Of a stretch of 64,000 bases of DNA, positions 7,378 to 64,000 are shown piece by piece. A model generated the notes under the pieces. That model had not been told where the DNA came from. It was given only the letters and a program-made list of their open reading frames with translations, and did not search any database. The stretch's first letter is position 1; the number at the start of each line of letters is the position of its first letter. The position numbers and the translations under genes were made by a program. The stretch comes from Candidatus Moranbacteria bacterium UBA4824 (lineage in GTDB: Bacteria > Patescibacteriota > Minisyncoccia > Moranbacterales > UBA2206), in the NCBI GenBank assembly GCA_002400405.1, contig DHFM01000046.1, forward strand, positions 11,722 through 75,721. The letters run 5' to 3'.

Positions 7378-7379
7378 AA

Positions 7380-23753: not shown

Positions 23754-23757
23754 AAAT

Positions 23758-25492: not shown

Positions 25493-25779
25493 TTAATTTC
25501 CTGCATAACCTGTGGATAAATATACTATAAACATCCTTATAACTATGTGCCTAGAATATTAAGAATCCTGTTTTTAATCTGAAATATTTCTAAAATATAT
25601 TTTTATTAAATAAATTATACCCCCTATAAAACACTCCATAAAAACACTTATCCAGTTATTATCCACACATATTTAGTTTTATATAAAGCAAAAAACAAGC
25701 TTATCCACTATTATTTTACTCTCTAATAATAGTAATAACATTATATTATTAATAATAAATTAAATACTAAATAAAAAAT
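25493..25779. other. oriC: dnaA-dnaN intergenic DnaA-box cluster plus AT-rich unwinding region
   Basis: tgtggataa (25511, reverse-complement box), ttatccagt (25648), ttatccaca (25658), ttatccact (25701). Then an AT-only stretch at 25741-25779. Gene orientation switches here (minus to the left, plus to the right). Confidence 0.7.
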
Positions 25780-33444: not shown

Positions 33445-34716
33445 TTATTTCACGAAAGATGCTTTAAAATATTTCTTAATATAACTAATTGTTTTTTTGT
33501 GATCGTCTCCACAAATAATAATAACAGTATCTCCTGGATTAGCAATTTCAGCAGCTTTTTTGATAGCATTTTCTTCTATGATAATCCGAACAGCATTTTT
33601 TTTGCTTTGCTTTGATAAAATTCCTTGTAAAAATAATTTTGAAACATCACCCTTTTCTCTTGTTGGCGTAAGACCAGTAGAGACATATCTCTTTTTAGAA
33701 ATTCCATCAATTTTATCATAAACAATAAAAGAATCAAAACTATCAGCTATAAATTGACCAGTTTCTACTATCATTTTATCTGTTCGATCAGGTGCTAGAC
33801 GTACTACTCCAATAGTTTTACCGTTGCTATTTTTTTTTACTAGGGTAGCTACTTCATTTAGGGAATATTTTTCATGAGCATAGTCAACCATAATCTTTAC
33901 ACCTTGTTTATTTTCCAGAAGAGTTAACCTCCCACCATGTTTTGCAGGTTTATAATTTTTAAGCACAGTAATACATTTCTTGGTCTTAGGTAAATTTCCT
34001 TCATTAAAAGAATAAAGCCCTCCCAAGATTAACATCAAATTATAAATAGAAGGATTGAAATTTCCCTTAAATGTCCAATCTATATCATGAATGTCTAGTA
34101 AATTGATAGTTTTATTTTTTGATTTCAAGATTAAATAGTTATCTTTTTTTGTAATGACAATTCCATTATTATCTAAGTGTTTTTTTGTATTGAAAAAATT
34201 TAGATTATAGCCTACAGGCACAAGGGTTACTTTTCTTTTAGTTGAGATGCAATTTAATTGAGAGCAAACTAGCTTATCGTCTGCATTAAATACAGCATAG
34301 CCATTTTCTCCGCCTATAGCAGAAAAAATAAAATTTTTTGCCTTAGCTATATCTTTTCTTGTTTTTAATCTTTTGGATGCACCTAAGTGATCCTCAAAAA
34401 CATTTGAAAAAATACCTATATTGTGTTTTCGATATCCCAGTCCTCCTTTGCCACTACTACCAATAGCTGTTTCTAGGATTGCTGTGTAATTGGGGCAATA
34501 TTTTTTCATGGCCAGGAGATATTTTCCTGGACACACTGTCGGAACTAGTCCAAAAAGTTGTTTACTTTCTAAAAGAGTGCTTTTTTGTTTTTCATTTACA
34601 TAATGTCCATCAGTATCAACGCGGAGTGTATTTTCTCCATAATTTTTTAATGTATAACTTATAGCTCTGGTTATGGTTGTTTTTCCTTTAGTTCCAGTTA
34701 TCGATATGATTTTCAT
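33445..34716 (-). CDS. Mur-ligase-family amide ligase (cyanophycin-synthetase C-terminal-like / MurE-CapB-like)
   Basis: P-loop ITGTKGKTTIT at the N-terminus, typical of the Mur ligase central domain. 423 aa. Directly downstream (4-nt gap) of an ATP-grasp gene. Confidence 0.6.
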   Translation of the reverse strand: MKIISITGTKGKTTITRAISYTLKNYGENTLRVDTDGHYVNEKQKSTLLESKQLFGLVPTVCPGKYLLAMKKYCPNYTAILETAIGSSGKGGLGYRKHNIGIFSNVFEDHLGASKRLKTRKDIAKAKNFIFSAIGGENGYAVFNADDKLVCSQLNCISTKRKVTLVPVGYNLNFFNTKKHLDNNGIVITKKDNYLILKSKNKTINLLDIHDIDWTFKGNFNPSIYNLMLILGGLYSFNEGNLPKTKKCITVLKNYKPAKHGGRLTLLENKQGVKIMVDYAHEKYSLNEVATLVKKNSNGKTIGVVRLAPDRTDKMIVETGQFIADSFDSFIVYDKIDGISKKRYVSTGLTPTREKGDVSKLFLQGILSKQSKKNAVRIIIEENAIKKAAEIANPGDTVIIICGDDHKKTISYIKKYFKASFVK

Positions 34717-34720
34717 TAGA

Positions 34721-35677
34721 TTAATTTTCTTGATTAAGCTTTAAAATGAATTCAAGAATATCCTTAACTACATTTCTTGTTTTCCCATGAGTTGGATTGT
34801 AATGAATATACAGATCTGGTTTTCCATTTATTTCTAAAATATTAAATTTTTGCTTGGAAGGATCTTTGCTTATATCTTCACAGATAATATCAATTCCAGC
34901 TAGTAATTTACCAGTAGCTTTAGCAGCTCTTTCGCAAACTTTTTTAAGGGTAGGATTTATCAAGTCAGTCACATCTTTTGTTTCTCCTCCTTCAGCTAAG
35001 CAAGAATTTTTCTTTATAAATATTTCTTGATCTTTTTTAAGTATAGTGTTGAGCTTAACATTTTGTTCTTCTAGGATTTTCTTAAGATATTTATTGAATA
35101 TCGTTTTTTGTTTTTTGTTTAATTGTTTTTTTTCTATTAATTTTTTAACAGTGCTTTTCCCATCACCAAAAATTCTAGGAGGAATCATTTCAAGAACGCC
35201 GATAGCTTCTTTTGCTAAAATTAAAACACGATATTCTTTTCCAAATACCATTTCTTGAGCAATAAGAAAAGGGAAATTTTTAATTTCTTGGGTAAGGAGT
35301 TTTTTAGCCTCAGATAATGTTTCTATATTAGTGAAAACGCCTTTGCTATTAGATCCATTAGCATCTTTTAATACAATCGGGTAAGTAAGAGAGGCTAATT
35401 TTTTTGCTGAATCGTTTGTATTCAGGGTTTTTTTGTAAAAACAAACAGTTTTAGGTGTTGGAATATTATTTTCTTTTAGCGCTACGTAAGTAAGATCCTT
35501 ATATGCCGTAAGAGCTTTTCCAGAAAGAAAATCACTAGCGATTTGAAATTTTCTAGAAACAAAAATTTTCTCCCCCTTTAAATTAATAAGAAAGCACCCT
35601 CTTTCTGGGACTATTTTATCAATAGTTCCTCCCATTTCTTCAACAACGCGCTTTATTAGTGGTGGATTTTTTATCAT
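34721..35677 (-). CDS. ATP-grasp family ligase (cyanophycin-synthetase N-terminal-like / D-Ala-D-Ala-ligase-like)
   Basis: 318 aa. Pattern of an ATP-grasp fold (PIVLKDANGSNSKGVF..., EYRVLIL..., C-terminal ILEINGKPDL). The assignment is from motif resemblance only. Confidence 0.5.
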   Translation of the reverse strand: MIKNPPLIKRVVEEMGGTIDKIVPERGCFLINLKGEKIFVSRKFQIASDFLSGKALTAYKDLTYVALKENNIPTPKTVCFYKKTLNTNDSAKKLASLTYPIVLKDANGSNSKGVFTNIETLSEAKKLLTQEIKNFPFLIAQEMVFGKEYRVLILAKEAIGVLEMIPPRIFGDGKSTVKKLIEKKQLNKKQKTIFNKYLKKILEEQNVKLNTILKKDQEIFIKKNSCLAEGGETKDVTDLINPTLKKVCERAAKATGKLLAGIDIICEDISKDPSKQKFNILEINGKPDLYIHYNPTHGKTRNVVKDILEFILKLNQEN

Positions 35678-35681
35678 AATT

Positions 35682-37088
35682 TTATTTATTTACATCAATT
35701 AAAAATTTATTCAAATCTCTTCGCCCTATAAGTAATGGGTAAGACAATCCTTCTCGATTAGCGATGGAAAGTTTAGAAGATATTTGTTGTTCATCGATTA
35801 CGATAGGTAGTTTAATCTCGATTCGATAAGTTGCTCCATGGGAGGAAAAAGTTTTTGCTACGCCAACAATATCAGGATGTTTTTCTAATTCTTTCCATGT
35901 TTCATTTTGGCTCAATATTTTTATTTCTTCTTCAGTTAAAACTTTATCAAGGTGAAAATCTTCCCAAATTTTTACCGCCTCTCCGAAACCTAAATCTTTA
36001 GCAAGATTTTTATCAATTGCTGAGATGCCAGCTCCAGTATCTATGCGAGCTTCCACTTCAATTTCTTTTCCATCCTTTCCGATAAGTTTTACTTTTTCCA
36101 CGGTGCCGATAACTTTACGCCCAGAAATTTCTTCCAGTTCTTCTTCGATTTCCCCACCGAAAAGGTCTTTGCCTACGCGGATACCTTTTTCTACGGTTTT
36201 GATTTTTATCCCAGCAGCTTTTTTGAGTCGTTCTTTGAGACCAGATAGATTAGCTACCTGGATAGAAAGGCCAGGGCGAGCGTTTAGTTCAATGATAGTT
36301 GGGCCGTTGATTTTATCAATGGCAATGTCTGCCCCTAAAAAGCCAAGGCCGGAAATTTCTTGGGCGCGTACAGCTAATTTTAAAACATCATTCCAATAGG
36401 GAAGCTTAATTCCGGAAAGCAGAAGACGAGTACCAGGAATATATTCAATTATTCTATTTTTCCCAAGAACTGCAGTGGTGGTTGTGCCCGTGGCAATGTC
36501 GATGCCTACGCCAATAGCGCCTTGTTGCAAATTGGCTTTGCCTTCTGATGATTTGGTTGGCAGGCGAAGCATGGCCATCAGCGGAACCTTATTGAAAACA
36601 ATGACACGAATATCAGGAATACCTTTATATGAATAGGGTTTGAAAAGTTTCAAAAGTTGCAAACGCTCTTCAAAAAAAGCAATGTCGGGTGTGCCGGAAA
36701 GAGAAAAAGATCCATCTAGTATGTTTCGAATATGTGTTTTTAAATCTTCTGTAGAAATTAGAGATCGGTCAGCTTTTATCCAAATATTATCGAAATTCTT
36801 TTTTTTACCATAAACTACCACAATACCTTCACCACCAAAACCACGATTAGGTTTCAGCGCAAAACCTTCCGGCAAGCTTTGCCAATCAAAATTTTCCAGT
36901 TCTTCCACGGTGCGAATTTTTGCAATCAGTTTTGGAACAGAGATATCATTTTTAGCGAGAATTTTTTTGCTCAGTAGTTTATTGTCAGCTAGTTTTTTAG
37001 CGCGCGATCGATTAAATGGCCGGATATAATCCAGATTCCGCGCATTCATCCCGAGTATTTGCCGGCTTAATTTAAAAAATTCAAACAT
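35682..37088 (-). CDS. Fusion protein: RimK-like ATP-grasp amidoligase (alpha-L-glutamate-ligase-related) + C-terminal retropepsin-like ('ATP-dependent zinc protease') domain
   Basis: N-terminus MNARNLDYIRPFN...KPNRGFGGEGIVVV...ELNARPGLSIQ (ATP-grasp). C-terminus EVEARIDTGAGISAID...YPLLIGRRDLNKFLIDV matches the retropepsin-like domain known as a RimK partner. Confidence 0.6.
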   Translation of the reverse strand: MFEFFKLSRQILGMNARNLDYIRPFNRSRAKKLADNKLLSKKILAKNDISVPKLIAKIRTVEELENFDWQSLPEGFALKPNRGFGGEGIVVVYGKKKNFDNIWIKADRSLISTEDLKTHIRNILDGSFSLSGTPDIAFFEERLQLLKLFKPYSYKGIPDIRVIVFNKVPLMAMLRLPTKSSEGKANLQQGAIGVGIDIATGTTTTAVLGKNRIIEYIPGTRLLLSGIKLPYWNDVLKLAVRAQEISGLGFLGADIAIDKINGPTIIELNARPGLSIQVANLSGLKERLKKAAGIKIKTVEKGIRVGKDLFGGEIEEELEEISGRKVIGTVEKVKLIGKDGKEIEVEARIDTGAGISAIDKNLAKDLGFGEAVKIWEDFHLDKVLTEEEIKILSQNETWKELEKHPDIVGVAKTFSSHGATYRIEIKLPIVIDEQQISSKLSIANREGLSYPLLIGRRDLNKFLIDVNK

Positions 37089-37126
37089 AATGTTTTTTAC
37101 TCATTAATCGTTCGTAAAGCCACGCT

Positions 37127-37168
37127 ACCCGCCTCGCGTCGACAAGTGGTCTCCACGAGTCGAGGCGG
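37127..37168. repeat. Repeat family J: GC-rich hairpin (cccgcctcgcgtcgac...gtcgaggcggg) between the 7TM gene and the ATP-grasp fusion gene
   Basis: Perfect 9-bp outer stem. A related copy at 54668..54712 lies inside the tsaE 3' end. Confidence 0.45.
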
Positions 37169-37197
37169 GCGAATGTGGCACATGCGAATTAATTTAA

Positions 37198-37848
37198 TTA
37201 TAAGTTTTTCATTATCTTGCGAAAACGAAAGTATTCGCTAACGCGTAGCCCTGTCCATTTGCCAAGCATTACATTAATTGGAATGGTAAGAAATACTATC
37301 CAAGGATAAAGAGCTAAAAAGTGAATGAGGGTGCTGGAGCTGGCGATAAAAAAACCTAAAATAGAAATGATTAAAGTTTCAATGGCTAAAATTATTGCAG
37401 CTTTGTCTCCTTTTTCAATTTGCACGGTCACAAATTTTTCCACCAAGGTAATCATAATTAGAATTGGAAAAATTGATACCGATGCCAAGCCCGTTCTTTT
37501 GAATTCTCCACCAATAACTAGGATTCCCAAAATTAACATTGCCACCGCAGTGAGCATGATGGCCACGCGCGGAAGATAGAGCAAGCGAAAAGGTTTAAGA
37601 ACAAAACGCATCAGCATGCCAGAAAAGATAACGGTGACAAAAATTGCAATGCCGTATTTGAGTCCATTAGTGGCAAGAAAAGCAAAAGTCACGATCAGCG
37701 GAGCATAAATTCCAAAAGCTTTGATTCCGACTACTTGGCGCAAAAATGCGATGAAAGTAGCAATTATCGGAAGCATAAGAATCAAAATAACTGTGGCAAA
37801 AGGTACGCCTTGGCCGAGAAAGAAATCAATTATTGGACTAGTGTTCAT
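37198..37848 (-). CDS. 7-TM membrane protein (7TM domain of the '7TM-transglutaminase' family, which partners RimK-like/retropepsin-like systems)
   Basis: 216 aa with about 6-7 hydrophobic helices and no soluble domain. Directly upstream of the ATP-grasp::retropepsin gene. The family call is inferred from gene neighbourhood. Confidence 0.4.
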   Translation of the reverse strand: MNTSPIIDFFLGQGVPFATVILILMLPIIATFIAFLRQVVGIKAFGIYAPLIVTFAFLATNGLKYGIAIFVTVIFSGMLMRFVLKPFRLLYLPRVAIMLTAVAMLILGILVIGGEFKRTGLASVSIFPILIMITLVEKFVTVQIEKGDKAAIILAIETLIISILGFFIASSSTLIHFLALYPWIVFLTIPINVMLGKWTGLRVSEYFRFRKIMKNL

Positions 37849-37854: not shown

Positions 37855-37950
37855 ACCGATTCGAATCTTCGAATGTATGCGAATTCTCGAATCTACGAAT
37901 TTTTATTTAGCTTATTCGTAGATTCGAATGCATTTGTAGATTCGAATCGC
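37855..37950. repeat. Repeat family A variant array (multiple ATTCGAAT / TACGAAT units in direct and inverted orientation)
   Basis: attcgaatcttcgaatgtatgcgaattctcgaatctacgaat...ttattcgtagattcgaatgcatttgtagattcgaatcgc. Lies 5' of the 7TM gene ATG and also encodes the C-terminal tail of ruvC. Confidence 0.55.
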
Positions 37951-39559: not shown

Positions 39560-40231
39560 TTATAACATTTTTTTAAGCGTTTGTGGAGTGTAGTCAATTC
39601 TTAGCAATTTGTCAATCGAAGGAATGTTTATTCGGAATTTCTCAACATCGTGCTTAAAATCTTTTTCTATTAAAAATAATATAACTTTATCGCCGAAATC
39701 TTTCTTTATAGCATTTACATTCTCTTTGGCTTTAAAGAAAGTATCTACAAAAACGTCTTTAGTTATTCGACGTCCTTCTATTTCTTCTCGTGCTTTTGTA
39801 AATTCCCAAGCGATTTTTGGATCTTGATAGAGATAGAAAATAGCTACAAGTCTATGATGATCAAGTGCGCGCGATATATTTTTTCTAGCAACACCAATAC
39901 TTGATAGAGTTCCATCTATAATGGCGTCATATTTTTTATGTATTATATGATCATATAAAATTTCAACACCCTTACTGCAAGCCGATTGAAATAGGTGCGA
40001 GTTTGATCCTGTGTAATCTGGAAATAATTCTCTGATTTCATCAGCATCAATTCTAACTAGAGGTTTCTTGAGTATTTCTATTAAGTTTTTTGAGAATTCT
40101 GTTTTTCCAGCACCAGGAGATCCAGCCATAAAAATAGTTGCAGGAATTTTTTTCGATTCGTAAATAGCCGGATTGGCAAATTTTTGAATCAAAATCTTTT
40201 TATTAGACTTGATATATTCAACGGGGTTCAT
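39560..40231 (-). CDS. Zeta-toxin-family P-loop kinase-like protein
   Basis: 223 aa. Walker A FMAGSPGAGKTEF. Layout RIDADEIR...DAIIDGTL consistent with zeta/UNAG-kinase-like fold. Confidence 0.5.
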   Translation of the reverse strand: MNPVEYIKSNKKILIQKFANPAIYESKKIPATIFMAGSPGAGKTEFSKNLIEILKKPLVRIDADEIRELFPDYTGSNSHLFQSACSKGVEILYDHIIHKKYDAIIDGTLSSIGVARKNISRALDHHRLVAIFYLYQDPKIAWEFTKAREEIEGRRITKDVFVDTFFKAKENVNAIKKDFGDKVILFLIEKDFKHDVEKFRINIPSIDKLLRIDYTPQTLKKML

Positions 40232-40933: not shown

Positions 40934-42019
40934 TTATATTTTTTTATACCTCGTGCTTCTGCCTTGGCCTATTCTTTCTATTTTTTTCAACTTCAACAAC
41001 ACTTCCAGCGCCTGTTTGACTGTTGGTCGAGGAATATTTGTTTCGGTTGCAATTTTGCCTGTTCCGGCGACGTCAACTTGCTCGAAAAATTTCCAAACTG
41101 CAAGTTGTTTTTCTGATAGAATTTTTTCGATATTTTCTTTTGACAATAATTCAATAGCTGATTGGGATTGCTTTAGCAAAATCGTAAAAAAGAAATCAAG
41201 CCACGGTGCAATATTTTCATTTCTTGTGTGAAAAGTTTTTTGACTGCGTCTAAGCGCGAGATAATAATCAGTTTTGTTATCTTCAACTAATTTCTCATGT
41301 GAAACATAAGGCATATACAAATAGCCACTTTGAAGAAGTAGTAAATTTGTCAAAATTCTGGAAATTCTTCCATTTCCATCTTGAAAAGGATGGATGGCTA
41401 AAAATTCAACCAAAAAATTGGCGATTATGAGTAGGGGATGGTATTTTTTTTCAGTTAACAAAAAATTAGTCGATCCAATCAGTTCCATCATTTCTTTTGG
41501 CGTGAGATAGGGGGAAGTCGGATTGAAAATTATCCCAACTTCTTTTCCTTCTTGATCATAGGCAACAACTTTATTTTCACCGAATTTATAATCTCCCAAA
41601 TGTCCCTGATCTTTGTCCGAATATTTCAGAAGTTCTTTGTGAAAATGTTTAACGGAACTTTCATTGAATTTCAAACTTCCCCAAGAATTAAAAATATTTT
41701 CTAATAGTTCATAATATCCTTGGACTTCTTGCTTGTCGCGGTCGGCAAATTTTTGAATATTTATGCCTTGCATTACCTTTTCAATATCCTCGTCAGTTAG
41801 TTTCACGCCTTCAATGCGCGTCGATGCGCCAGTAGAAGTTATCAAAACAGATCGCTTGAGACGACCCAACGCTTGTGGGCTCAACTGGGCGCCAGTCACC
41901 CAATTGCCCTTTAATTCATCAATCTTGGCGATTTTCGAAATTATTCCAGCGGGAATATTACTAAGTCTTCTGGAGAACTTATCTGTAATGGTGCTATTTT
42001 TTTGTATTTTTGTAATCAT
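40934..42019 (-). CDS. Fic/Doc-family protein (AMPylase-type) with C-terminal wHTH
   Basis: Canonical Fic motif HPFQDGNGRISR. Confidence 0.8.
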   Translation of the reverse strand: MITKIQKNSTITDKFSRRLSNIPAGIISKIAKIDELKGNWVTGAQLSPQALGRLKRSVLITSTGASTRIEGVKLTDEDIEKVMQGINIQKFADRDKQEVQGYYELLENIFNSWGSLKFNESSVKHFHKELLKYSDKDQGHLGDYKFGENKVVAYDQEGKEVGIIFNPTSPYLTPKEMMELIGSTNFLLTEKKYHPLLIIANFLVEFLAIHPFQDGNGRISRILTNLLLLQSGYLYMPYVSHEKLVEDNKTDYYLALRRSQKTFHTRNENIAPWLDFFFTILLKQSQSAIELLSKENIEKILSEKQLAVWKFFEQVDVAGTGKIATETNIPRPTVKQALEVLLKLKKIERIGQGRSTRYKKI

Positions 42020-42119: not shown

Positions 42120-42707
42120 ATGAGTACAGTAAAAAATGACGTAAAAATAAATAAAGGCTCAAATAAGCAAAGATTTGCTGACTTGGCTAAAATAGGTATT
42201 TCAGTCTTTCACTGCGATGATTTGGCTAATTTATGGCAGATAAAAAACCCTAATACTTTGCATACTACGCTAAAGCGATATGCTAAAGAAGGGCTGATTA
42301 TACGAATTCAAAGAGGGTTATATTCTTTTCAGCCAGTAGAAAAAATTGATTTGTTTCTTTTGGGGGTGAAAATATTGCATCGGTATGCTTATATTAGCAT
42401 GGAAACTATTCTGGCTAGGAATGGGATAATTTTTCAAGAGATTCCAAAAACTTCCATTATCAGTTCTATTTCCAAGAATTTTTCTGTTGCCGGTCGAGAA
42501 TACCACTGCCGTCGTTTGGCGGATAAATATCTATATAATGACGCCGGAATTGTTTTGGAAAACGGAGTACAGGTCGCGTCAACAGAAAGGGCGGTGGCGG
42601 ATATCCTCTATTTCAATCCGCGCTATTATTTTGACGGCGATCGCTTGATTGATTGGAAAAAAGTCCGCGCTATCCAAAGAGAAATAGGTTATCCACAAAA
42701 TCGATAA
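42120..42707 (+). CDS. AbiEi-like antitoxin / transcriptional regulator
   Basis: 195 aa. IQRGLYSF motif. Upstream of and overlapping the frame of an AbiEii-like gene. Paralog of 28146..28775. Confidence 0.5.
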   Translation: MSTVKNDVKINKGSNKQRFADLAKIGISVFHCDDLANLWQIKNPNTLHTTLKRYAKEGLIIRIQRGLYSFQPVEKIDLFLLGVKILHRYAYISMETILARNGIIFQEIPKTSIISSISKNFSVAGREYHCRRLADKYLYNDAGIVLENGVQVASTERAVADILYFNPRYYFDGDRLIDWKKVRAIQREIGYPQNR

Positions 42708-42733
42708 AAATAATAATTAAAAAAAACAAAAAA

Positions 42734-43483
42734 ATGATTACTCCAACTCCAAAAGATGCTGAGCATAAAGCATGGATGTTTCGTCTACTAGGCGCGCTAT
42801 TTGATGACGCTTTTTTATCTAGCGTTCTATTTTTCAAAGGCGGAACTTGCGCAGCTATGCGCGAACTTCTAGATCGATTTTCAGTGGATCTTGATTTTGA
42901 TTATATTAGCGAAAAAGGAGAAATCAAAAAGGTTCAAGAAAAAATGGAAGAAATTTTTCAAAAACTCGGTTTGGAGATAAAAGACAAAAGTCGAAATGTT
43001 CCGCAATATTTTTTGAAATATCCAACCACTGCAGGTGGAAGAAATACGCTAAAAATAGACATCTGCTTTCCTGTACCGCAATTTAATCAATATGAAAGCG
43101 CACAACTTTCTGAGATTGATCGCATTGTGAATTGTCAAACAGTTGAAACGATGATGGCTAATAAGCTAATAGCGCTCATTAATCGATTTGAAAAAAACGG
43201 CCATATTGCTGGTCGAGATGTGTATGATGTCCATTATTTTTTTTGGAATGGTTTTCGTTATGACGCGAAAATCATAGAGGATATAAGAAAATGTTCGGTG
43301 GAAAAATTCTTCGAGAATTTGGTGGTTTTTGTTGCTGACAAAATAAATCAAGAAGTTATCGATCAAGATCTCAATATGCTTTTGCCCAACGACAAATTTC
43401 AAATGATGCGAAAAATTCTCAAGCAAGAAACTCTAATGATGCTCAAAGACGAGTTGGCAAGGATAAAGAATGGAAAGTTATAA
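42734..43483 (+). CDS. AbiEii-family nucleotidyltransferase toxin (DUF1814)
   Basis: FFKGGTCAAMRELLDRFSVDLDFD nucleotidyltransferase motif. ATG at 42734 preferred over the ORF-track start 42653. Confidence 0.6.
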   Translation: MITPTPKDAEHKAWMFRLLGALFDDAFLSSVLFFKGGTCAAMRELLDRFSVDLDFDYISEKGEIKKVQEKMEEIFQKLGLEIKDKSRNVPQYFLKYPTTAGGRNTLKIDICFPVPQFNQYESAQLSEIDRIVNCQTVETMMANKLIALINRFEKNGHIAGRDVYDVHYFFWNGFRYDAKIIEDIRKCSVEKFFENLVVFVADKINQEVIDQDLNMLLPNDKFQMMRKILKQETLMMLKDELARIKNGKL

Positions 43484-48266: not shown

Positions 48267-48269
48267 AAT

Positions 48270-48378
48270 AATTTTTAATTTTGTAATTTTTAATTTTATA
48301 AATAAATCTAAAATCTAAATTTTTAAAAATTAGAAATTAAGAAATTATTTAAAAATTAAAAAATTAAAAATTGGAAAT
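48270..48378. repeat. AT-only ~110-bp direct repeat, copy 1 (family H)
   Basis: aatttttaattttgtaatttttaattttataaataaatctaaaatctaaatttttaaaaatta... recurs with a few changes at 49222..49333. Confidence 0.6.
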
Positions 48379-48403
48379 TCGAGTAAATTTAGTATACACC
48401 CAT

Positions 48404-48432
48404 TTGACAAAATTTCCAACTTATGCTATGCT
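48404..48432 (+). promoter_or_regulatory. Sigma70-like promoter (TTGACA-17-TATGCT) at the head of a ~450-nt structured leader
   Basis: ttgacaaaatttccaacttatgctatgct. Confidence 0.35.
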
Positions 48433-48633
48433 CCAAAGTCATCTTGAAACTTTATGTTTTTGAGATGATTAGCAGTAAATTGCAGGCAATTGGTGACTTC
48501 TATCTTTTGTCATCAATATAGAAACATTTTTCAAGATATGGGTAGCTGGGTTTCGGCTCGACTATGCCTCGATGTTGTTTCTTTTTTTGGGCTCTTAGCC
48601 CGAATTCTTGCCTGCAGATTATTGGAACTTCGC

Positions 48634-48680
48634 CATTTCAGAACCACTGATTATCACTGATTATACTGATTTCACTGAAT
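48634..48680. repeat. Repeat family D partial copy (cagaaccactgattatcactgattatactgatttcactgaat)
   Basis: Shares the 5' arm of the 105-bp element at 6079 and 6584. Confidence 0.5.
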
Positions 48681-48879
48681 AAAAAATTTAAAAATTCAAA
48701 GAAGGTATCCGAAAAGTTGAGCTTTAGGGTGGAGCCTAAACTTTTCAAAAAGCTCAACTTTAGAGGAGTAAAATTCTATCAAAGCTAAATGTTTTGTGGG
48801 AAAGTTTTTAGGAGATATTTAGTTTTAATGGAAGGGGAATAAATAAAACAAAAAATTCTTTAAAAAATAGGGAGGGAGT

Positions 48880-49131
48880 ATGAAAATTTCTAAAATAGTA
48901 CTTCGTTTTTTTGGTTATTTTTCAATTGAAGAGATTGAGGCAAAAATTAAATTTGCCGAATTTCAAATCAAAACAATAAAAGACGAAAGCAATTATTACA
49001 TAAATCTTATCAGAAAGGGGGAAGCAGGCACTGCAATATCTGATGATTTGCGTCATAATCGTGGGTTACTTCCTTATTATCAAAATGAGTTGAAATTGTG
49101 GACTAAAAAACTAAAGAAAATAAAAAAATAA
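48880..49131 (+). CDS. Small hypothetical protein (83 aa) with strong Shine-Dalgarno
   Basis: GGGAGGGAG 4 nt upstream of the ATG. N-terminal hydrophobic stretch. Lies inside the segment bounded by the family-H direct repeats. Confidence 0.3.
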   Translation: MKISKIVLRFFGYFSIEEIEAKIKFAEFQIKTIKDESNYYINLIRKGEAGTAISDDLRHNRGLLPYYQNELKLWTKKLKKIKK

Positions 49132-49221
49132 AACCAGGCGTGGAGGAGTATGGTGGGAAAAAGAAAAAGGGTTAGCTTGTCGATATAAGCGCCCTTTTTT
49201 TGTTGTCTGAACCACAAAACA

Positions 49222-49333
49222 ATTTTTAATTTTTGAATTTTTAATTTTATAAATAAATCTTAAATCTAAATTTTTAAAAATTAAAAATTGAAATTTATTT
49301 AAAAATTACAAAAATTATAAAATTAAAAATTTT
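49222..49333. repeat. AT-only ~110-bp direct repeat, copy 2 (family H), abutting the stop of the double-PilB gene
   Basis: See 48270..48378. Confidence 0.6.
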
Positions 49334-52300
49334 CTAAAGATCAGTGACTCGTTCCACTTCTTCAAGTGATGTCCCACCTTCCAAAACTTTCAAAATTCCA
49401 TCTTGTGTCATTGTGAGCATGCCGAGTTCGACGGCTTTTTCTTCTAGTTCGGCGGTGATGGCGCCACGGGTGACGAGGTCTTGAATTTCACGGGTTAGTT
49501 GGAAAACTTCACTAACAGTCATGCGACCTTTGTAACCTAGACCGTTGCATTTTTCGCAACCTTTTGGATGATAAATCTCTAAAACTTTGGGAATGTCCAC
49601 TCCCGCCTTTGGACTAATAGTGGCTAAAACTTTTTCAATCATTTCTTTTTCTTTTTCATTTGGCTGGACTTTTTCTTTGCAATCACAAAGGCGACGCACG
49701 AGGCGTTGCGCCATAAAGGCATTGACGGCGGTGGCGATGTCGGACGGGGAAACGCCCATATTGATCATTCGCGCCACTGCTCCGGCGGCGTTGTTGGTGT
49801 GAATTGTAGAAAGCACCAGATGTCCTGTGAGTGAAGCTTGCACGGCTACTTGGGCAGTTTCATCGTCACGAATTTCACCAATCATCATGATATCCGGATT
49901 TTGACGAAGCAGAGCGCGCAGAGCGGTGGCGAAAGTATAGCCTTCTTTGTCGTTGACTGGAGTTTGCAAAATTCCTGGGAGTTGATATTCGATTGGATCT
50001 TCTACGGTGATTATTTTTACTTCCGGTTTATTAAGCATACTGAGAACACTATAGAGTGTGGTAGTTTTTCCACTGCCTGTTGGGCCGGTGTTTAAAATTA
50101 CACCATTAGGTTTTTTTATTTCTGAAATTATTTTGTCTAAGTTTTGTTGTCTAATACCAAGCTTAGTAAGATCCAATTCCATCGATGAACCGCGGAGGAG
50201 TCGCATCACAATTGTTTCACCATAACCACCCAGGATGATCGAAACACGCACATCAATATTTTTTTCGGAGATTGTGATGTCGTCATCAAATTTTATACTA
50301 AAGCGACTGTCAATCACTCCTTGGCGCACTTCAGTTTTCACACCGGAAAGAATTTTAATTTCGCCAAGTAAGGCCGGATATTCATTGAGTGGAAGAGTGG
50401 CAACATTTTGCAAAATTCCATCAATGCGAAAACGAATTTTGACATCATCTTTTTCTGGTTCGATATGAATGTCGCCAACATTGAGAATGGTAGCGGCTGA
50501 AAAAACAATTTTGTTAATATCAGTAGTTTTGGCTGAGCGTAAAATTTCTTCCAGTTTTTTGAAATCCGCTATATTTTCTTGAGCCGAGGTATATTGACTA
50601 TTTTCAATAAGAATTTTTTTGCCCAAAGTTTGGGACATTAATTTCTCATAAATACTTTCCAAAAATTCTCCTTGTCCTGTCGCACTTTCCACTTCATCAA
50701 TGGAAGTGACTCCGGCAATAGCTTTCAAAATTCCATCTTGAAGCATAGTGATCATTCCGGATTCCAAAGCGGCCATAGCTAATTCTGTTTCGCCGGCCAT
50801 TTCTAAAATTAATTTTTCGATATCTTCATTAATCGTGAGTACTTCAAAAATTCCTACGCGACCCTTATACCCCAAACCATTGCATTTCGGACAACCTTTT
50901 GGGCGATAGAGTTTTTCAATGTCTTTGGGAATTTCTACTTTAGCTTTAGGCGAAATAATGGAGAGAATTTTTTTGATAGATTCTATTGATTCTTTTGCTG
51001 GAACATAGGCTTCCTTGCAATCACAAAGTTTTCGCACCAGCCTTTGACCGATAACAGCATTCATAGCGGGGGACATCAAAGTTGGTTTTACTCCAAGCTC
51101 AATAAATCTTGGAATAGCCCCGACAGCATTATTAGTGTGGAGTGAAGACAAAACTAAATGCCCCGTAAGTGCAGAATTAACCGCGATATCAGCCGTTTCA
51201 TCATCGCGAATTTCACCCACTAAAATAACATCTGGATCCTGACGGACAATAGCGCGCAGGCCTTGAGCGAAAGTATAACCTCGTCCTTTTTCTATTTGAG
51301 TTTGAGAAATGCCGGATAATTCATATTCAATCGGATCTTCAATAGTAATGATTTTTTTGTCCGGAGTGTTGAGTTTGTTGATGATTGAATATAGGGTAGT
51401 AGTTTTTCCCGAACCGGTTGGTCCGGTGTTTAGAATCATTCCATTAGGTGAGAGCATTTGTTTTTGCACAGTTTCATAGGCTAAACCTTGGAGACCTAAA
51501 TTTTCCACGCTTACTTTGATTGAATCAGGATCTAGAAGGCGCATTACAACTGACTCACCAAAATTACCAGGGATAATACTCACACGCAAAGCAATTTTTT
51601 TCTCTGCTAGATTTATCTCAAAAGTTCCGTCTTGGGCGATATCGCGAAGATTGAGTTTCATCTTGGACATCAATTTTATGCGCGAGATGATTGTGTTGAA
51701 AACATTGAGAGGTAAAAAGGCGACATCTTGCAAATTGCCATCAATTCGATAACGCAGACGAATTTCTTTTTCTTGCGGTTCAATGTGGACATCGCTGGCA
51801 CCAAGCTTGTAGGCTCCGGCTAGCATAATATTTAGAACTTGAGTAGTGGGAAGTTCTTTAATACGTTGTTTTAGGGTGATCAAATCTTTCATTTCTTCCT
51901 CAAACTTATTCAAATCATCTCCACTAAGACTCAAACTCATTTGATCAAGGATATCTACAAAAACAATCTGTTTATATTTTTCCCAAACGCGATTGATATT
52001 TGAGGTGGAAACGACAAAAAGTTTTATCTGCCAACCTTTTTCAGTTTTTAGATTTTCTATAAAATCATGAGTTTCTTGATTTCTTGGATCGCGAGATATG
52101 ATAGTGACGACTTTGCCACTTCTGTGAATTAGGGCAATGCCGAATTTTCGCGCTTCCTCCTCGGTTAGGAGACGAATATCATCTTTGGAAATTGGGATTA
52201 GATTAGTGTCGACATAGGGAAGATTAAGTTCGGCTGCTAAGGCGCTAGCCATTTCCTCCTCCTCTTTTTTTCTAAATGTAGAAAGAATTTTGGCGGTTTT

Positions 52301-52363
52301 ATTTTCCTGTTGAATTTCATCAGGTTTTACATTTTGAACTTTTGGTTTGAGAATTTTGATCAT
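49334..52363 (-). CDS. Tandem-fused double PilB/GspE-family secretion ATPase (two complete ATPase units in one 1009-aa polypeptide)
   Basis: Two Walker A sites (both NTGPTGSGKTTTLYS). Two Asp boxes and His boxes. Two tetracysteine motifs (CDCKE...CPKCNGLGYKGR and CDCKE...CEKCNGLGYKGR). Two C-terminal MLQDGILK/MTQDGILK motifs. N-terminal GspE_N-like region before each. Confidence 0.8.
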   Translation of the reverse strand: MIKILKPKVQNVKPDEIQQENKTAKILSTFRKKEEEEMASALAAELNLPYVDTNLIPISKDDIRLLTEEEARKFGIALIHRSGKVVTIISRDPRNQETHDFIENLKTEKGWQIKLFVVSTSNINRVWEKYKQIVFVDILDQMSLSLSGDDLNKFEEEMKDLITLKQRIKELPTTQVLNIMLAGAYKLGASDVHIEPQEKEIRLRYRIDGNLQDVAFLPLNVFNTIISRIKLMSKMKLNLRDIAQDGTFEINLAEKKIALRVSIIPGNFGESVVMRLLDPDSIKVSVENLGLQGLAYETVQKQMLSPNGMILNTGPTGSGKTTTLYSIINKLNTPDKKIITIEDPIEYELSGISQTQIEKGRGYTFAQGLRAIVRQDPDVILVGEIRDDETADIAVNSALTGHLVLSSLHTNNAVGAIPRFIELGVKPTLMSPAMNAVIGQRLVRKLCDCKEAYVPAKESIESIKKILSIISPKAKVEIPKDIEKLYRPKGCPKCNGLGYKGRVGIFEVLTINEDIEKLILEMAGETELAMAALESGMITMLQDGILKAIAGVTSIDEVESATGQGEFLESIYEKLMSQTLGKKILIENSQYTSAQENIADFKKLEEILRSAKTTDINKIVFSAATILNVGDIHIEPEKDDVKIRFRIDGILQNVATLPLNEYPALLGEIKILSGVKTEVRQGVIDSRFSIKFDDDITISEKNIDVRVSIILGGYGETIVMRLLRGSSMELDLTKLGIRQQNLDKIISEIKKPNGVILNTGPTGSGKTTTLYSVLSMLNKPEVKIITVEDPIEYQLPGILQTPVNDKEGYTFATALRALLRQNPDIMMIGEIRDDETAQVAVQASLTGHLVLSTIHTNNAAGAVARMINMGVSPSDIATAVNAFMAQRLVRRLCDCKEKVQPNEKEKEMIEKVLATISPKAGVDIPKVLEIYHPKGCEKCNGLGYKGRMTVSEVFQLTREIQDLVTRGAITAELEEKAVELGMLTMTQDGILKVLEGGTSLEEVERVTDL

Positions 52364-52367: not shown

Positions 52368-52400
52368 TTACGAATTACGAATTAGTACGAATGTACGAAT
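52368..52400. repeat. Repeat family A copy (ttacgaattacgaattagtacgaatgtacgaat) 5 nt upstream of the double-PilB start codon
   Basis: 33/33 identical to 21939..21971. Confidence 0.6.
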
Positions 52401-52446
52401 AAGAATTATTTTAAAAATCACATCATTATATTACCATAAAAATGAC

Positions 52447-52474
52447 AAATAAAAAAATCCGCTTTGAAGCGGAT
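52447..52474 (-). terminator. Rho-independent terminator of the DHH gene
   Basis: Hairpin atccgctt-tgaa-gcggat followed on the minus strand by a T7 run. Confidence 0.55.
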
Positions 52475-52494
52475 TCAAATAGGAGAAAATTAAA

Positions 52495-53628
52495 TTATTT
52501 TGTCAGCAGATTTTTTATTTTTTCAGCGATAATTTGGCCAACCTCAATAATATTTGGGTTTTCAATCTTAATCTCTAAAAATCCATAGTTAGATTTTCCG
52601 GGAATTTCTGAAAGTATTTTGGTGGTTGTTTCTGGCGTGGAAACTTTTATAATAGCAACAGAACTTTGGGGAGTATCATTATAGACAGCCATAAAAATTT
52701 TTCCTTCGCTATAATTTTCTTCAAGCTTTGAAATGATAATTGGCAAATCATCACTAGTAGAACGACTTTGGACAAAATCTTCCACACTTAAAGTTGACCA
52801 AACTAATTTACTAGTTTCATCCCAATTTATTTTTGCCATCGCCCTTCCCCAAAGCTTCAAAATATGCAGGGGTTGAGTTTTATACATCCAGCGGATAATT
52901 TCTTGTTGATCAGCTCCCTTATCCATAAGAGAAGCGCTAGCCAGGAGAGCTTTGGGCGTGGTATTTTTTTTCTGAAAACTATCCGTGGCGCCAATAAGAC
53001 CCGCTAGAAGACAAGTGGCAATTTTTTTGTCAATTAATTCTGGGTATATTTCTTTAAACGTTTGAGCTAGGATTTCGCAGGAAGAGGAGGCGGTGATATC
53101 AGTGAGATTAATTTGCCCGAAATTATCATTGTCGCTTTTGTGATCAATGTTTATTACAGGCACTTCAAAAAATAGATCTGTGTTTTCTAGGTAAAGCTGG
53201 CCAAGTTTTTCCAAATCAGAGCAATCAATCACAATCACTAAATCATACTTGAATTTAGCTAGGATAAAAGAAAAATCTCGTGGATCAACCGAGCCTTTTT
53301 CCGGTGTAACTAAGATATTGAAAGTGTCACCTTTTTCTTCGTGGCGAACCTGCATTATTTTGTTTTGGGCGGTATTAAAAGAAAGAACAAAATCACGTGC
53401 GCCGGAAATTTCTGAGAGAATATTCTCGGGTCTCGGCAAAAAATTGAATTTTTCTGATAGATGATTAGAGAAAGCAATAGTTGGCAAAATGTTTAATTTT
53501 TCTAAAAAATAATAAAGACCCCAAGCTGAGCCTACCGCGTCAGCCGAAGGATTTTCCGGAATAAGAATCAAAACTTCTTTGGAATTTTCCAGAATTTTTT
53601 TGAATTGTTCTTGAGGATTTAGGGACAT
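52495..53628 (-). CDS. DHH-family phosphoesterase (NrnA-like, DHH + DHHA1)
   Basis: N-terminal LILIPENPSADAVGSAWGLYYFL. DHH-type motif NIDHKSDNDNFG. C-terminal DHHA1-like region. Confidence 0.5.
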   Translation of the reverse strand: MSLNPQEQFKKILENSKEVLILIPENPSADAVGSAWGLYYFLEKLNILPTIAFSNHLSEKFNFLPRPENILSEISGARDFVLSFNTAQNKIMQVRHEEKGDTFNILVTPEKGSVDPRDFSFILAKFKYDLVIVIDCSDLEKLGQLYLENTDLFFEVPVINIDHKSDNDNFGQINLTDITASSSCEILAQTFKEIYPELIDKKIATCLLAGLIGATDSFQKKNTTPKALLASASLMDKGADQQEIIRWMYKTQPLHILKLWGRAMAKINWDETSKLVWSTLSVEDFVQSRSTSDDLPIIISKLEENYSEGKIFMAVYNDTPQSSVAIIKVSTPETTTKILSEIPGKSNYGFLEIKIENPNIIEVGQIIAEKIKNLLTK

Positions 53629-63548: not shown

Positions 63549-63614
63549 ATTTACTAAAGTACGAATCGAGCGAAAGTACGAATTCGTAATTTAGTTTAAT
63601 TAGTATTTTCGTAA
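63549..63614. repeat. Repeat family A copy (near-identical to 7380..7445), ending 1 nt before the next ATG
   Basis: agcgaaagtacgaattcgtaatttagtttaatt(a/c)gtattttcgtaaa shared with the copy at 7380. Confidence 0.65.
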
Positions 63615-63615
63615 A

Positions 63616-64000
63616 TATGACTAAAAAACAAAAAATAATTATTGCTGTTCTTGCGATAGCAATCGTGGCGGGGGGATTTTATTTTTTCAAAAAAACAAAT
63701 ACTTCCAATGTTAAACAAATAGATCTAAATAACACAAAGTCAAATTCAGGCCCAACTAATACTGGGCCAGTGAGTCCAATTTCGGGGTTAAATTGTGAAG
63801 ATTGGAATCGCCGTCCCGTAGCGGTGATGCAACCATCAGACGTGCAAGCTCGTCCGGCCGCTGGTTTTTCCGAGGCGGATATGGTGATTGAACTTCCTGC
63901 TTATACATCTTCCAATACGCGTCTTTTAGGTGTTTATATTTGTAATATTCCTAAAGAAGTCGGCGCCATTAGAAGTGCTCGCCATGATCACATTGCTTTA
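63616..64000 (+). CDS. DUF3048 (YerB-like) lipoprotein/membrane-anchored protein, 5' partial (continues beyond window)
   Basis: N-terminal TM (IIIAVLAIAIVAGGFYFF). RRPVAVMQPSDVQARPAAGFSEADMVIELPAYTSSNTRLLGVYICNIPKEVGAIRSARHDHIAL matches the DUF3048 N-terminal domain. No stop before the window end. Confidence 0.5.

What the first reader, a model, noticed from the sequence alone, without database searches (positions are those of the whole stretch)
49334..52363. Tandem-fused double PilB/GspE secretion ATPase (two complete ATPase units in one 1009-aa ORF)
The protein contains every hallmark of a PilB/GspE ATPase twice. Each half has a Walker A (NTGPTGSGKTTTLYS), Asp/His boxes, the tetracysteine Zn motif (CDCKE...C(P/E)KCNGLGYKGR) and the C-terminal M(L/T)QDGILK helix. 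Each half is preceded by its own N-terminal GspE_N-like region. The two halves are clearly paralogous but diverged, so this is not an assembly duplication of identical sequence.

These ATPases normally act as homohexamers of ~500-570-aa subunits. A covalent head-to-tail dimer would form a pseudo-hexamer from three chains with two non-equivalent sites per chain. A TACGAAT repeat sits 5 nt upstream of its start.
Basis: seen in the sequence. Interest (0 to 1): 0.7.

Follow-up and report, generated by a model that had tools for sequence, protein, structure and literature searches.

The report
Tandem double PilB motor ATPase gene
One gene in this Moranbacteria (CPR) genome encodes two complete pilus-motor ATPase units joined head to tail, a conserved lineage-wide fusion with two fixed, non-equivalent active sites that could serve as a natural tool for studying how these six-part ring motors work.

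Summary
ORF 49334-52363 (-) encodes 1009 aa with two full PilB/GspE-type units (N2D + CTD, 49% identical over 414 aa). Each unit has Walker A, Asp box, Walker B/catalytic Glu, His box and a tetracysteine Zn site. Only unit 1 has an N1 (MshEN/GspE_N) domain; unit 2 follows a conserved ~32-aa helical linker.

It is not a misassembly.

The gene sits in a conserved block (PolA-TsaE | DHH-PilB-RuvB-bPH). Other CPR lineages have a single-unit PilB in that slot, so the fusion is an in-place tandem duplication. A triple-unit ortholog, two independent CPR fusions and a non-CPR 2xT2SSF+2xT2SSE protein also exist.

All catalytic residues are invariant in both units, but each unit carries fixed, reciprocal changes (unit 1 R->T at the QDGR arginine; unit 2 D->N in RQDPD, among others).

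The most likely assembly is a trimer of tandems forming one pseudo-hexameric ring. This stoichiometry and the pilus partners are untested: no pilus genes lie nearby. No prior description was found. Verdict: a new variant of a known kind.

The parts
49334..52363 (-). Complete ORF, 1009 aa: N1-[N2D-CTD]-linker-[N2D-CTD] tandem PilB/GspE-type ATPase
   Evidence: ORF; two PF00437 matches; 100%-coverage homologues at 68-95% identity
51971..52228 (-). N1 domain (MshEN/T2SSE_N fold), residues 46-131; the only N1 in the protein; lacks the c-di-GMP-binding motif
   Evidence: Pfam PF05157 E=2.8e-7; RLGxx...Q motif absent in 0/119 family members (motif from PMC5013675)
50678..51901 (-). ATPase unit 1 (N2D + CTD), residues 155-562; the ancestral-like copy. 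All catalytic residues are intact, but the QDGR arginine is replaced by T247
   Evidence: (closer to single-unit orthologues in 16/18 fused proteins)
51401..51424 (-). Walker A of unit 1 (GPTGSGKT, residues 314-321)
   Evidence: invariant in 119 sequences
50882..51025 (-). Tetracysteine Zn motif of unit 1 (C447, C449, C491, C494)
   Evidence: invariant
50582..50677 (-). Inter-unit linker, residues 563-594, with conserved motif GxGxFLxxIYxKLM predicted as a helix (565-579)
   Evidence: conservation; AlphaFold secondary structure; length 28-32 aa in the main family
49343..50581 (-). ATPase unit 2 (N2D + CTD, no N1), residues 595-1007; the derived copy. Catalytic residues are intact, with fixed substitutions at otherwise universal positions (G630, S686, L711, P802, A814, N822, N868, D875, T949)
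50063..50086 (-). Walker A of unit 2 (GPTGSGKT, residues 760-767)
   Evidence: invariant
49547..49687 (-). Tetracysteine Zn motif of unit 2 (C893, C895, C936, C939)
   Evidence: invariant
52369..52400 (-). 5' leader with four ATTCGTA heptamers next to the AGGA ribosome-binding site; a member of a dispersed genome-specific repeat, not conserved in orthologues
52425..52475 (-). Terminator-like hairpin after the DHH gene (arms 52456-52475, then a T-run) followed by a TATAAT box (52425-52430); suggests the fused gene has its own promoter
   Evidence: sequence read; inverted repeat I1; a hairpin is also present in orthologous loci. Function inferred, not tested
52495..53628 (-). DHH-family phosphoesterase gene, conserved immediate upstream neighbour (context only, no functional link shown)
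   Evidence: Pfam; same position in L001-L005, L011, L029, L030, L043, L084-L086
47259..48266 (-). ruvB, conserved downstream neighbour that marks the syntenic slot (context only)
   Evidence: Pfam; synteny across CPR loci

Best explanation
The ORF is a genuine, vertically inherited gene of a Moranbacteria (Patescibacteria/CPR) chromosome. It arose when a positionally conserved, RuvB-linked CPR pilB gene was duplicated in tandem in its own slot, and the two copies fused into one reading frame. The product is N1-[N2D-CTD]-helical linker-[N2D-CTD].

Shown:
- Both units keep every residue known to bind and hydrolyse ATP in PilB.
- Both units are under similar purifying selection.
- Each unit carries its own fixed departures from the ancestral sequence, so the chain has two non-equivalent sites.

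Inferred:
- Three chains assemble into one six-unit ring in which unit 1 and unit 2 alternate, with only three N1 anchoring domains per ring.
- The ring works like a PilB/GspE extension motor. N2D-CTD closure on ATP is passed to the two alternating cytoplasmic domains of a trimeric PilC-type platform, which would let the unit 1 and unit 2 N2Ds each specialise for one PilC domain.
- In such a ring, opposite positions are always one unit 1 and one unit 2. The published two-opposite-sites (C2) firing scheme would therefore need both units to be active, which fits their intact motifs.
- The most likely cellular role is to power a type IV pilus-like filament (adhesion or DNA uptake) whose other genes lie elsewhere in the genome.

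The confidence of 0.6 is for the whole statement. The gene being real and arising by in-place duplication is about 0.95. The single 3x2 ring and the pilus role are each about 0.55-0.6.
For: Real and conserved:
- About 13 fused clusters exist at the 50% identity level in an exhaustive search.
- Named sources are all Moranbacteria/Parcubacteria/Patescibacteria.

In-place duplication:
- The fused gene always lies in PolA-TsaE | DHH-PilB-RuvB-bPH-LTD.
- The same block in about 15 other CPR loci holds a single-unit PilB.
- All fused units and the syntenic singles form one clade with 99/100 bootstrap support.

Both sites competent: R260/R706, R275/R721, K320/K766, E346/E792, E384/E830, E389/E835, the His-box T/H/H and R444/R890 are invariant in 119 sequences (residue roles from PMC5424180).

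Asymmetry:
- Unit 1 is closer to the singles in 16/18 fused proteins.
- 32 positions are fixed but different between the units.
- T247 versus R687, and D376 versus N822.

Single ring of 3x2:
- The family forms hexamers built from N2D(n)-CTD(n+1) packing units (PMC5424180).
- A PulF/PilC trimer offers six alternating Cyto1/Cyto2 domains, one per ATPase N2D (PMC10790770; PMC11656802).
- A x3 ortholog sits at the same locus.
- P0138 joins 2 T2SSF cytoplasmic domains to 2 T2SSE units in one chain.

Fold: each unit superposes on PilB/PilF/GspE with TM 0.85-0.91.
Against: - No pilC, pilM/N/O, pilT, prepilin or prepilin peptidase gene is present in the 64-kb window or within 10 kb of any ortholog. 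The pilus role rests on homology only.
- Whether Moranbacteria genomes carry a PilC could not be established.
- Both units score below the NCBIfam equivalog cut-offs for PilB and GspE.
- AlphaFold gave no confident inter-unit arrangement (pTM 0.43 and 0.62).
- Linker length is not conserved between the independent fusions (5-32 aa), so geometry does not single out one assembly.
- The triple-unit form does not fit a strict unit1/unit2 alternation against PilC, and it is known from one contig only.
- Bootstrap support for unit 2 monophyly is only 49%.
Confidence: 0.6

Rival explanations
1. Six chains assemble into two stacked hexameric rings (12 sites), one made of unit 1 and one of unit 2, as in KaiC, p97/NSF or ClpB, rather than three chains forming one ring.
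For: Tandem P-loop ATPase domains in one chain commonly form stacked rings (established knowledge of KaiC, p97 and ClpB; not tested here). The linker plus pre-N2D helices (about 60 residues) are long enough. AlphaFold did not define an in-ring contact.
Against: PilB-type rings are built from interdigitated N2D(n)-CTD(n+1) packing units and engage PilC through the N2D face (PMC5424180; PMC10790770). A second ring stacked on the first would bury or strand one N2D face. Unit 2 lacks the N1 anchoring domain. Fusions of x2 and x3, both divisors of 6, exist, and P0138 pairs two units with two PilC cytoplasmic domains.
Confidence: 0.15
2. One unit, most likely unit 2, is catalytically silent or strongly attenuated. 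It would serve as a structural or regulatory partner, giving a ring with three working sites like F1 alpha3beta3.
For: Unit 2 evolves faster. It has fixed changes at universally conserved positions, including D->N next to Walker B. In divergent lineages unit 2 loses the Zn site (P0127) or N2D arginines (P0128, P0132-P0134). In the independent tandem P0138, one unit has lost the P-loop lysine.
Against: In the query and 118 close homologues every residue with an assigned catalytic or sensing role is invariant in unit 2. Unit 1, not unit 2, lacks the R257-equivalent arginine. Conservation of the two units is similar (0.80-0.83 versus 0.81-0.87).
Confidence: 0.15
3. The protein is not a pilus motor. 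The RuvB-linked CPR PilB lineage, single or tandem, drives another process such as DNA uptake or translocation, or secretion, independent of a canonical pilus cluster.
For: It is never next to pilus genes, and it is always embedded among DNA repair and recombination genes: PolA, RuvB, RuvC, YebC, Fpg. It forms a clade separate from the pilM-N-O-B-T-C cluster PilBs of CPR. It scores below the PilB and GspE equivalog cut-offs.
Against: Sequence, Zn motif, N1 domain and fold are those of PilB/GspE extension ATPases. No alternative partner is evident. The synteny with housekeeping genes may have no functional meaning.
Confidence: 0.2
4. The long ORF is an artefact: a misassembly, or a sequencing frameshift that joins two adjacent pilB genes.
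For: None beyond the a priori possibility in metagenome assemblies.
Against: The same junction and a conserved linker motif occur in 216 proteins from many samples and assemblers and in loci L001-L004 and L084-L086 read here. The units are only 49% identical, so repeat collapse cannot create the junction.
Confidence: 0.01

Closest known systems
Type IVa pilus extension ATPase PilB (Geobacter metallireducens 5TSH/5TSG/6OLJ, Myxococcus xanthus 3JC8)
   Same: Each unit has the N2D + CTD fold (TM 0.85-0.91) at 40-44% identity, the tetracysteine Zn site, and all nucleotide-binding and sensing residues except one. An N1 domain sits at the N-terminus.
   Different: There are two such units in one chain and only one N1 per two units. 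Unit 1 lacks the R257-equivalent. Unit 2 has D->N in RQDPD and other fixed changes. The gene is not in a pilus gene cluster. Both units score below the TIGR02538 cut-off.
Type II secretion ATPase GspE/EpsE (4PHT, 1P9R, 4KSR/4KSS)
   Same: Equal or slightly higher HMM score than PilB (TIGR02533, 487 and 432 bits). Same motifs and Zn site.
   Different: Below the cut-off (630). CPR are reported to lack the outer-membrane secretin (PMC6744442), so a classical T2SS is unlikely. Tandem architecture.
Thermus thermophilus PilF (6F8L, 5IT5, 5OIU)
   Same: A long (~890 aa) PilB-type ATPase in which a domain was multiplied within one chain.
   Different: In PilF the N-terminal MshEN/GSPII domains are repeated and there is one ATPase unit (a single aligned stretch). 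Here the ATPase unit itself is repeated and N1 is single.
Single-unit 'RuvB-linked' PilB of other CPR lineages (loci L005, L006, L011, L016, L019, L025, L029, L030, L043, L049)
   Same: Same syntenic slot (TsaE | DHH-PilB-RuvB) and same clade (99% bootstrap). These are the positional orthologues and the ancestral state.
   Different: One unit of 431-570 aa. They keep the ancestral residues that unit 2 has replaced.
PilC/GspF platform protein (internal tandem duplication, proposed trimer) and TadB/TadC
   Same: A 3 x 2 arrangement giving six pseudo-equivalent domains around one axis (PMC10790770). P0138 physically joins 2 T2SSF domains with 2 T2SSE units.
   Different: A different protein family (membrane platform, not an ATPase). 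The analogy concerns symmetry only.
Tandem-domain ring ATPases KaiC, p97/NSF, ClpB
   Same: Two P-loop ATPase domains in one polypeptide, derived by duplication, with divergent roles for the two sites.
   Different: Those form stacked double rings of six chains. Here a single ring of three chains is considered more likely, but this is untested. The comparison rests on general knowledge and not on a test made here.

Membership tests
PilT-like / T2SSE secretion ATPase superfamily (Pfam PF00437) | HMM match above the gathering threshold | tested here: met
   753 bits against a cut-off of 24.9, with two stretches
PilT-like / T2SSE secretion ATPase superfamily (Pfam PF00437) | Walker A, Asp box, atypical Walker B with catalytic Glu, and His box | tested here: met
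   All are present and invariant in both units across 119 homologues
PilT-like / T2SSE secretion ATPase superfamily (Pfam PF00437) | N2D + CTD two-domain fold | tested here: met
   The AlphaFold model (pLDDT 78) matches 5OIU, 5IT5 and 5TSG with target-normalised TM 0.85-0.91
PilT-like / T2SSE secretion ATPase superfamily (Pfam PF00437) | Hexameric ring assembly | not testable with these tools
   No multimer prediction is available, and the monomer pTM of 0.43 is uninformative
PilB/GspE-type extension ATPases (as opposed to PilT retraction ATPases) | Tetracysteine Zn-binding motif in the CTD | tested here: met
   C447/449/491/494 and C893/895/936/939 are invariant; essentiality as stated in PMC11656802
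PilB/GspE-type extension ATPases (as opposed to PilT retraction ATPases) | N-terminal N1 (T2SSE_N/MshEN) domain on each ATPase unit | tested here: not met
   Present once (residues 46-131) for two units; unit 2 has none
PilB/GspE-type extension ATPases (as opposed to PilT retraction ATPases) | Score above the NCBIfam equivalog cut-off (TIGR02538 PilB 675.65; TIGR02533 GspE 630.25) | tested here: not met
   Unit 1 scores 480 and 487 bits; unit 2 scores 421 and 432 bits. Both are far above PilT (186 and 155), so the units are extension-type in character but not equivalogs
PilB/GspE-type extension ATPases (as opposed to PilT retraction ATPases) | Encoded with pilC/pilM/pilins or gsp genes | tested here: not met
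   None are found in the 64-kb window or in the +-10 kb flanks of 7 orthologous loci. Presence elsewhere in the genome is unknown
MshE-type c-di-GMP-binding ATPases | Two RLGxx(L/V/I)(L/V/I)xxG(L/V/I)(L/V/I)xxxxLxxxLxxQ motifs in N1 | tested here: not met
   The motif is absent in 0/119 family members; motif definition from PMC5013675
Stacked double-ring tandem ATPases (KaiC/p97 type), considered as an architectural analogue | Two ATPase domains per chain forming two coaxial hexameric rings | not testable with these tools
   Two domains per chain are shown; the ring arrangement is unknown

The most novel reading that the evidence does not exclude
Covalent multimerisation of the PilB motor is a recurrent, selected solution in CPR bacteria, arising as x2 at least three times and as x3 once, and elsewhere as 2xPilC-cyto+2xPilB. 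It would hard-wire a symmetry match between the ATPase ring and the internally duplicated PilC platform. Unit 1 and unit 2 would each be dedicated to one PilC cytoplasmic domain and would fire as obligate unit1/unit2 opposite pairs. If so, this family is a natural 'linked-subunit' motor that reveals the true stoichiometry and firing order of type IV filament machines.
Probability: 0.3. Interest if true: 0.8.

Novelty: new variant of a known kind. Interest (0 to 1): 0.62.

Why it matters
How the homohexameric PilB/GspE ring couples ATP turnover to the PilC/GspF platform is unsettled. Open points include C2 versus C3/C6 symmetry, a 6:2 versus 6:3 stoichiometry, and which sites fire together (PMC5424180; PMC10790770).

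In a homohexamer, individual positions cannot be mutated separately. Workers on other ring ATPases had to engineer covalently linked subunits to do this (my own knowledge of the ClpX work; not checked here). This family offers a natural, evolutionarily optimised linked dimer, plus a linked trimer, with two distinguishable sites that already show reciprocal fixed changes. It makes site-specific mutagenesis, symmetry analysis by cryo-EM and PilC-pairing tests directly feasible.

It also identifies a distinct, widely conserved 'RuvB-linked' PilB lineage in CPR bacteria that lies outside the canonical pilus cluster. Its role is unknown, and pili are thought to be central to the episymbiotic lifestyle and DNA acquisition of CPR bacteria (PMC6744442; PMC9894109).

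Tried and rejected
1. Misassembly or frameshift: rejected because the junction is conserved in many independent assemblies.
2. A second N1 domain before unit 2: rejected.
3. c-di-GMP control through MshEN: the motif is absent.
4. The upstream ATTCGTA repeat as a gene-specific regulatory element: it is not conserved in the orthologous loci L001-L004, and the same heptamer arrays occur at four other places in the window.
5. Genome-wide census in species-representative genomes: the scan was saturated by the generic Walker A pattern. Only one further fused locus (L004) appeared among the 80 loci kept. The loci did reveal the synteny with single-unit orthologues.
6. Linking the fused gene to a PilC in the same genomes through a PilC profile search and contig-length fingerprints: no Moranbacteria PilC appeared in the top 120 hits. 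The one matching contig length (7161 bp) was a coincidence.
7. AlphaFold of the full chain and of the CTD(u1)-linker-N2D(u2) construct to fix the inter-unit geometry: pTM 0.43 and 0.62, inconclusive.
8. AFDB fold search for other full-length tandems: the library was unavailable.
9. Linker length as a geometric constraint: it varies from 5 to 32 aa between independent fusions.
10. Literature: eight full-text searches and five papers searched for specific terms gave no description of a fused or tandem PilB/GspE. The library does not cover subscription journals.
11. dN/dS per unit: not attempted, because the available orthologous DNA is too diverged (72% amino-acid identity or less).
Full report
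**1. The observation**

The minus strand carries one uninterrupted ORF at 49334-52363 encoding 1009 aa. Pfam finds PF00437 (T2SSE) twice and PF05157 (MshEN, the N1 or GspE_N domain) once, at residues 46-131. Residues 155-562 align with 595-1007 at 49% identity over 414 positions (E=4e-145). Walker A (GPTGSGKT) is at 314 and 760, and the CxC...CxxC Zn motif is at 447-494 and 893-939.

Unit 2 is preceded by about 32 residues (563-594) carrying a conserved GxGxFLxxIYxKLM motif, predicted to be helical, and then by its own N2D. The architecture is N1-[N2D-CTD]-linker-[N2D-CTD].

**2. Not an artefact; which organism**

A search of 5.8 billion proteins returned more than 120 clusters of 1005-1024 aa covering 98-100% of the query at 68-95% identity. 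The named ones are from Candidatus Moranbacteria/Moraniibacteriota, the Parcubacteria group or Pacebacteria, and the best hit is 95% identical. A second profile search added about 80 more clusters, including genomes public since 2012-2015 (ACD_11C, ACD_15C, GW2011), where the protein is simply called PilB or GspE/PulE family protein.

An exhaustive HMMER scan of 1.84 billion representatives at 50% identity lists about 13 full-length fused representatives at 39-52% identity, followed by ordinary proteins of about 550 aa. The window also contains rnpA-yidC and dnaA-dnaN, so it is chromosomal. Moraniibacteriota belongs to the Parcubacteria group of Patescibacteria.

**3. Origin: an in-place tandem duplication**

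In the window and in seven orthologous loci, the gene lies in the block PolA-TsaE | DHH-[PilB]-RuvB-small ORF-bPH-LTD protein, with YebC and RuvC nearby. The same block exists in about 15 loci from other CPR lineages: Paceibacterota, Giovannonibacteria, Doudnabacteria, Nealsonbacteria, Wildermuthbacteria, Staskawiczbacteria, Minisyncoccia and several 'Saccharibacteria'-labelled MAGs. In those loci it holds a single-unit PilB of 431-570 aa.

A neighbour-joining tree of individual units with 100 bootstraps shows the following:
- All fused units plus these syntenic singles form one clade (99%). This clade is separate from the PilBs of canonical CPR pilM-N-O-B-T-C-pilin-pilD clusters and from non-CPR PilB/GspE.
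- Unit 2 sequences are monophyletic (49% support) on long branches.
- Unit 1 sequences intermix with the singles.

Unit 1 is closer to the singles than unit 2 in 16 of 18 fused proteins (mean identity 0.472 versus 0.429).

Two other fused proteins, P0130 and P0131, pair with their own second unit with 100% support (55% and 73% identity). They nest among single-unit lineages, so they are independent, younger fusions.

P0012 (1460 aa) has three units and lies at the orthologous locus directly after DHH. Its units 2 and 3 are sisters within the unit 2 clade (75% support).

P0138 (1047 aa, non-CPR-like composition) carries two T2SSF (PilC/GspF cytoplasmic) domains followed by two T2SSE units. The first unit has lost the P-loop lysine.

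**4. Are both sites functional?**

I mapped the residues with assigned roles in G. metallireducens PilB (PMC5424180) through residue-level alignments to the solved chain:

| Role in G. metallireducens PilB | Unit 1 | Unit 2 |
|---|---|---|
| R271 | R260 | R706 |
| R286 | R275 | R721 |
| T327 | T316 | T762 |
| P-loop Lys | K320 | K766 |
| E357 (Asp box, Mg) | E346 | E792 |
| Catalytic Glu | E384 | E830 |
| E400 (pore loop) | E389 | E835 |
| T411 / H413 / H420 | T400 / H402 / H409 | T846 / H848 / H855 |
| R455 | R444 | R890 |

All of these are invariant or nearly so in 119 family members, in both units. Mean column conservation is similar: 0.81-0.87 for unit 1 and 0.80-0.83 for unit 2.

Two exceptions run in opposite directions:
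- R257, the Arg of QDGR that bridges to E357 in the open ATP-bound interface, is T247 in unit 1 (T in 107/119, never R) but R687 in unit 2 (119/119).
- The Asp of RQDPD is D in 31/31 single-unit proteins and in every unit 1, but N822 in unit 2 (118/119).

Altogether, 32 positions are fixed but different between the units. At the universally conserved ones (S190, G246, P265, Q356, G368, D376, G504), unit 1 keeps the ancestral residue and unit 2 does not. In a few divergent lineages unit 2 has lost the Zn cysteines or N2D arginines.

Conclusion: the chain has two competent but non-equivalent sites, with unit 2 the more derived.

**5. Structure**

AlphaFold with 68 homologues gives well-folded domains (mean pLDDT 78) but a pTM of 0.43. 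A CTD(u1)-linker-N2D(u2) construct gives pLDDT 86 and pTM 0.62, about what the larger domain alone would yield. The relative placement of the units is therefore not determined.

Foldseek against the PDB matches one unit at a time to PilB (5TSH, 5TSG, 6OLJ), PilF (5OIU, 5IT5) and GspE (4PHT, 1P9W), with target-normalised TM 0.85-0.91. No solved chain spans both units (query-normalised TM 0.36 or less).

**6. Mechanism**

- Shown: the anatomy, origin, conservation and site asymmetry described above.
- Established for the family: hexamers are built of N2D(n)-CTD(n+1) packing units. Two opposite sites turn over together in a C2 ring (PMC5424180). A modelled PulF/PilC trimer presents alternating Cyto1 and Cyto2 domains, each contacting one ATPase N2D (PMC10790770; restated in PMC11656802).
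- Inferred: three tandem chains form one ring of alternating unit 1 and unit 2 with three N1 domains. Positions i and i+3 are then always of different type, so C2 firing uses one unit 1 and one unit 2 per step. The alternating N2Ds can each specialise for one PilC cytoplasmic domain. The x3 ortholog (2 x 3 = 6) and the 2xT2SSF+2xT2SSE protein fit ring-based stoichiometric matching.
- Rivals: a stacked double ring, a pseudo-enzyme unit, and a non-pilus function.

**7. Function and context**

NCBIfam places both units between GspE and PilB, below both equivalog cut-offs and far above PilT. The N1 domain lacks the c-di-GMP motif.

No pilus genes occur in the window or near any ortholog. An attempt to show that Moranbacteria genomes with the fusion also encode PilC failed to reach that lineage. 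One paper reports type IV pilus genes in patescibacterial bins, two of them Moranbacteria, without detail (PMC9530719). The pilus-motor role is therefore inferred from homology.

The gene seems to have its own promoter. A terminator-like hairpin follows the DHH gene and a TATAAT box precedes the leader.

**8. Novelty**

Eight full-text searches and five papers searched for specific terms gave no description of a fused or tandem PilB/GspE. The sequences are public but carry generic names. I rate this a new variant of a known kind. The library searched excludes most subscription journals.

Noticed in passing
window 52369-52400; 21940-21978; 7379-7446; 37859-37930; 63549-63616: A dispersed, genome-specific short repeat built on TACGAAT/ATTCGTA. 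An identical 24-nt block (TACGAATTACGAATTAGTACGAAT) lies immediately upstream of two unrelated minus-strand genes, the fused pilB and the flippase-like gene ending at 21934. Related ~68-nt palindromes occur at 7379-7446 (upstream of the VirB4-like gene) and 63549-63616. The two-heptamer pattern is found 5 times against 0 expected by chance. It is absent upstream of the orthologous pilB genes.
   Followed up: partly
P0138 (protein; no locus available): A 1047-aa protein with two soluble T2SSF (PilC/GspF cytoplasmic) domains fused to two T2SSE ATPase units. Unit 1 has lost the P-loop lysine (GPTGSGTT) and unit 2 is intact. It is an independent tandem and a 'Rosetta-stone' link between two ATPase units and the two PilC cytoplasmic domains.
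   Followed up: partly
L001 10001-14383 (protein P0012): A triple-unit (1460 aa) ortholog at the same DHH-linked locus. Its units 2 and 3 are a further duplication of unit 2 (59% identical). It is known from a single 77-kb metagenome contig.
   Followed up: partly
loci L005, L006, L008, L009, L011, L016, L017, L019, L022, L024, L025, L029, L030, L043, L049: A 'RuvB-linked' single-unit PilB is conserved across many CPR lineages in the block PolA-TsaE-(DHH)-PilB-RuvB-(bPH)-YebC. It is phylogenetically separate from the PilB of the canonical CPR pilus cluster. Some members (431-445 aa) lack the N1 domain altogether.
   Followed up: partly
window 52495-53628 (-): A DHH-family phosphoesterase gene is the immediate upstream neighbour of the PilB gene in the window and in many orthologous loci, even where other neighbours are rearranged (L001). 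A terminator-like hairpin separates the two genes, so no functional link is shown.
   Followed up: partly
window 2687-16161 (+): A type IV secretion-like cluster: a VirB4/TraC-type ATPase (7469-9286), a lytic transglycosylase with a weak T4SS-pilin match (13518-14492), and large ORFs with no Pfam match (2687-4807, 4813-6081, 10551-13379).
   Followed up: no
window 22129-26937: A replication-origin region: jag(KH/R3H)-yidC-rnpA on the minus strand faces dnaA-dnaN on the plus strand. Cumulative GC skew has its minimum at about 24-26 kb.
   Followed up: no
window 28146-29559; 39560-40231; 40934-42019; 42120-43483: Several toxin-antitoxin or defence-type genes lie close together: two AbiEii nucleotidyltransferase toxins (one with an AbiEi-like partner), a zeta toxin and a Fic protein.
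   Followed up: no
window 33445-37848 (-): A cluster of a Mur-ligase-like protein, two or three ATP-grasp proteins (one ATPgrasp_ST fused to a Zn-protease-like domain) and a 7TM_transglut membrane protein. The same cluster lies near the fused gene in L002 and L003.
   Followed up: no
window 48267-49333: A gap of about 1.07 kb between the fused gene and ruvB contains only an 83-aa plus-strand ORF with no Pfam match. Orthologous loci carry small unannotated ORFs in the same interval.
   Followed up: no
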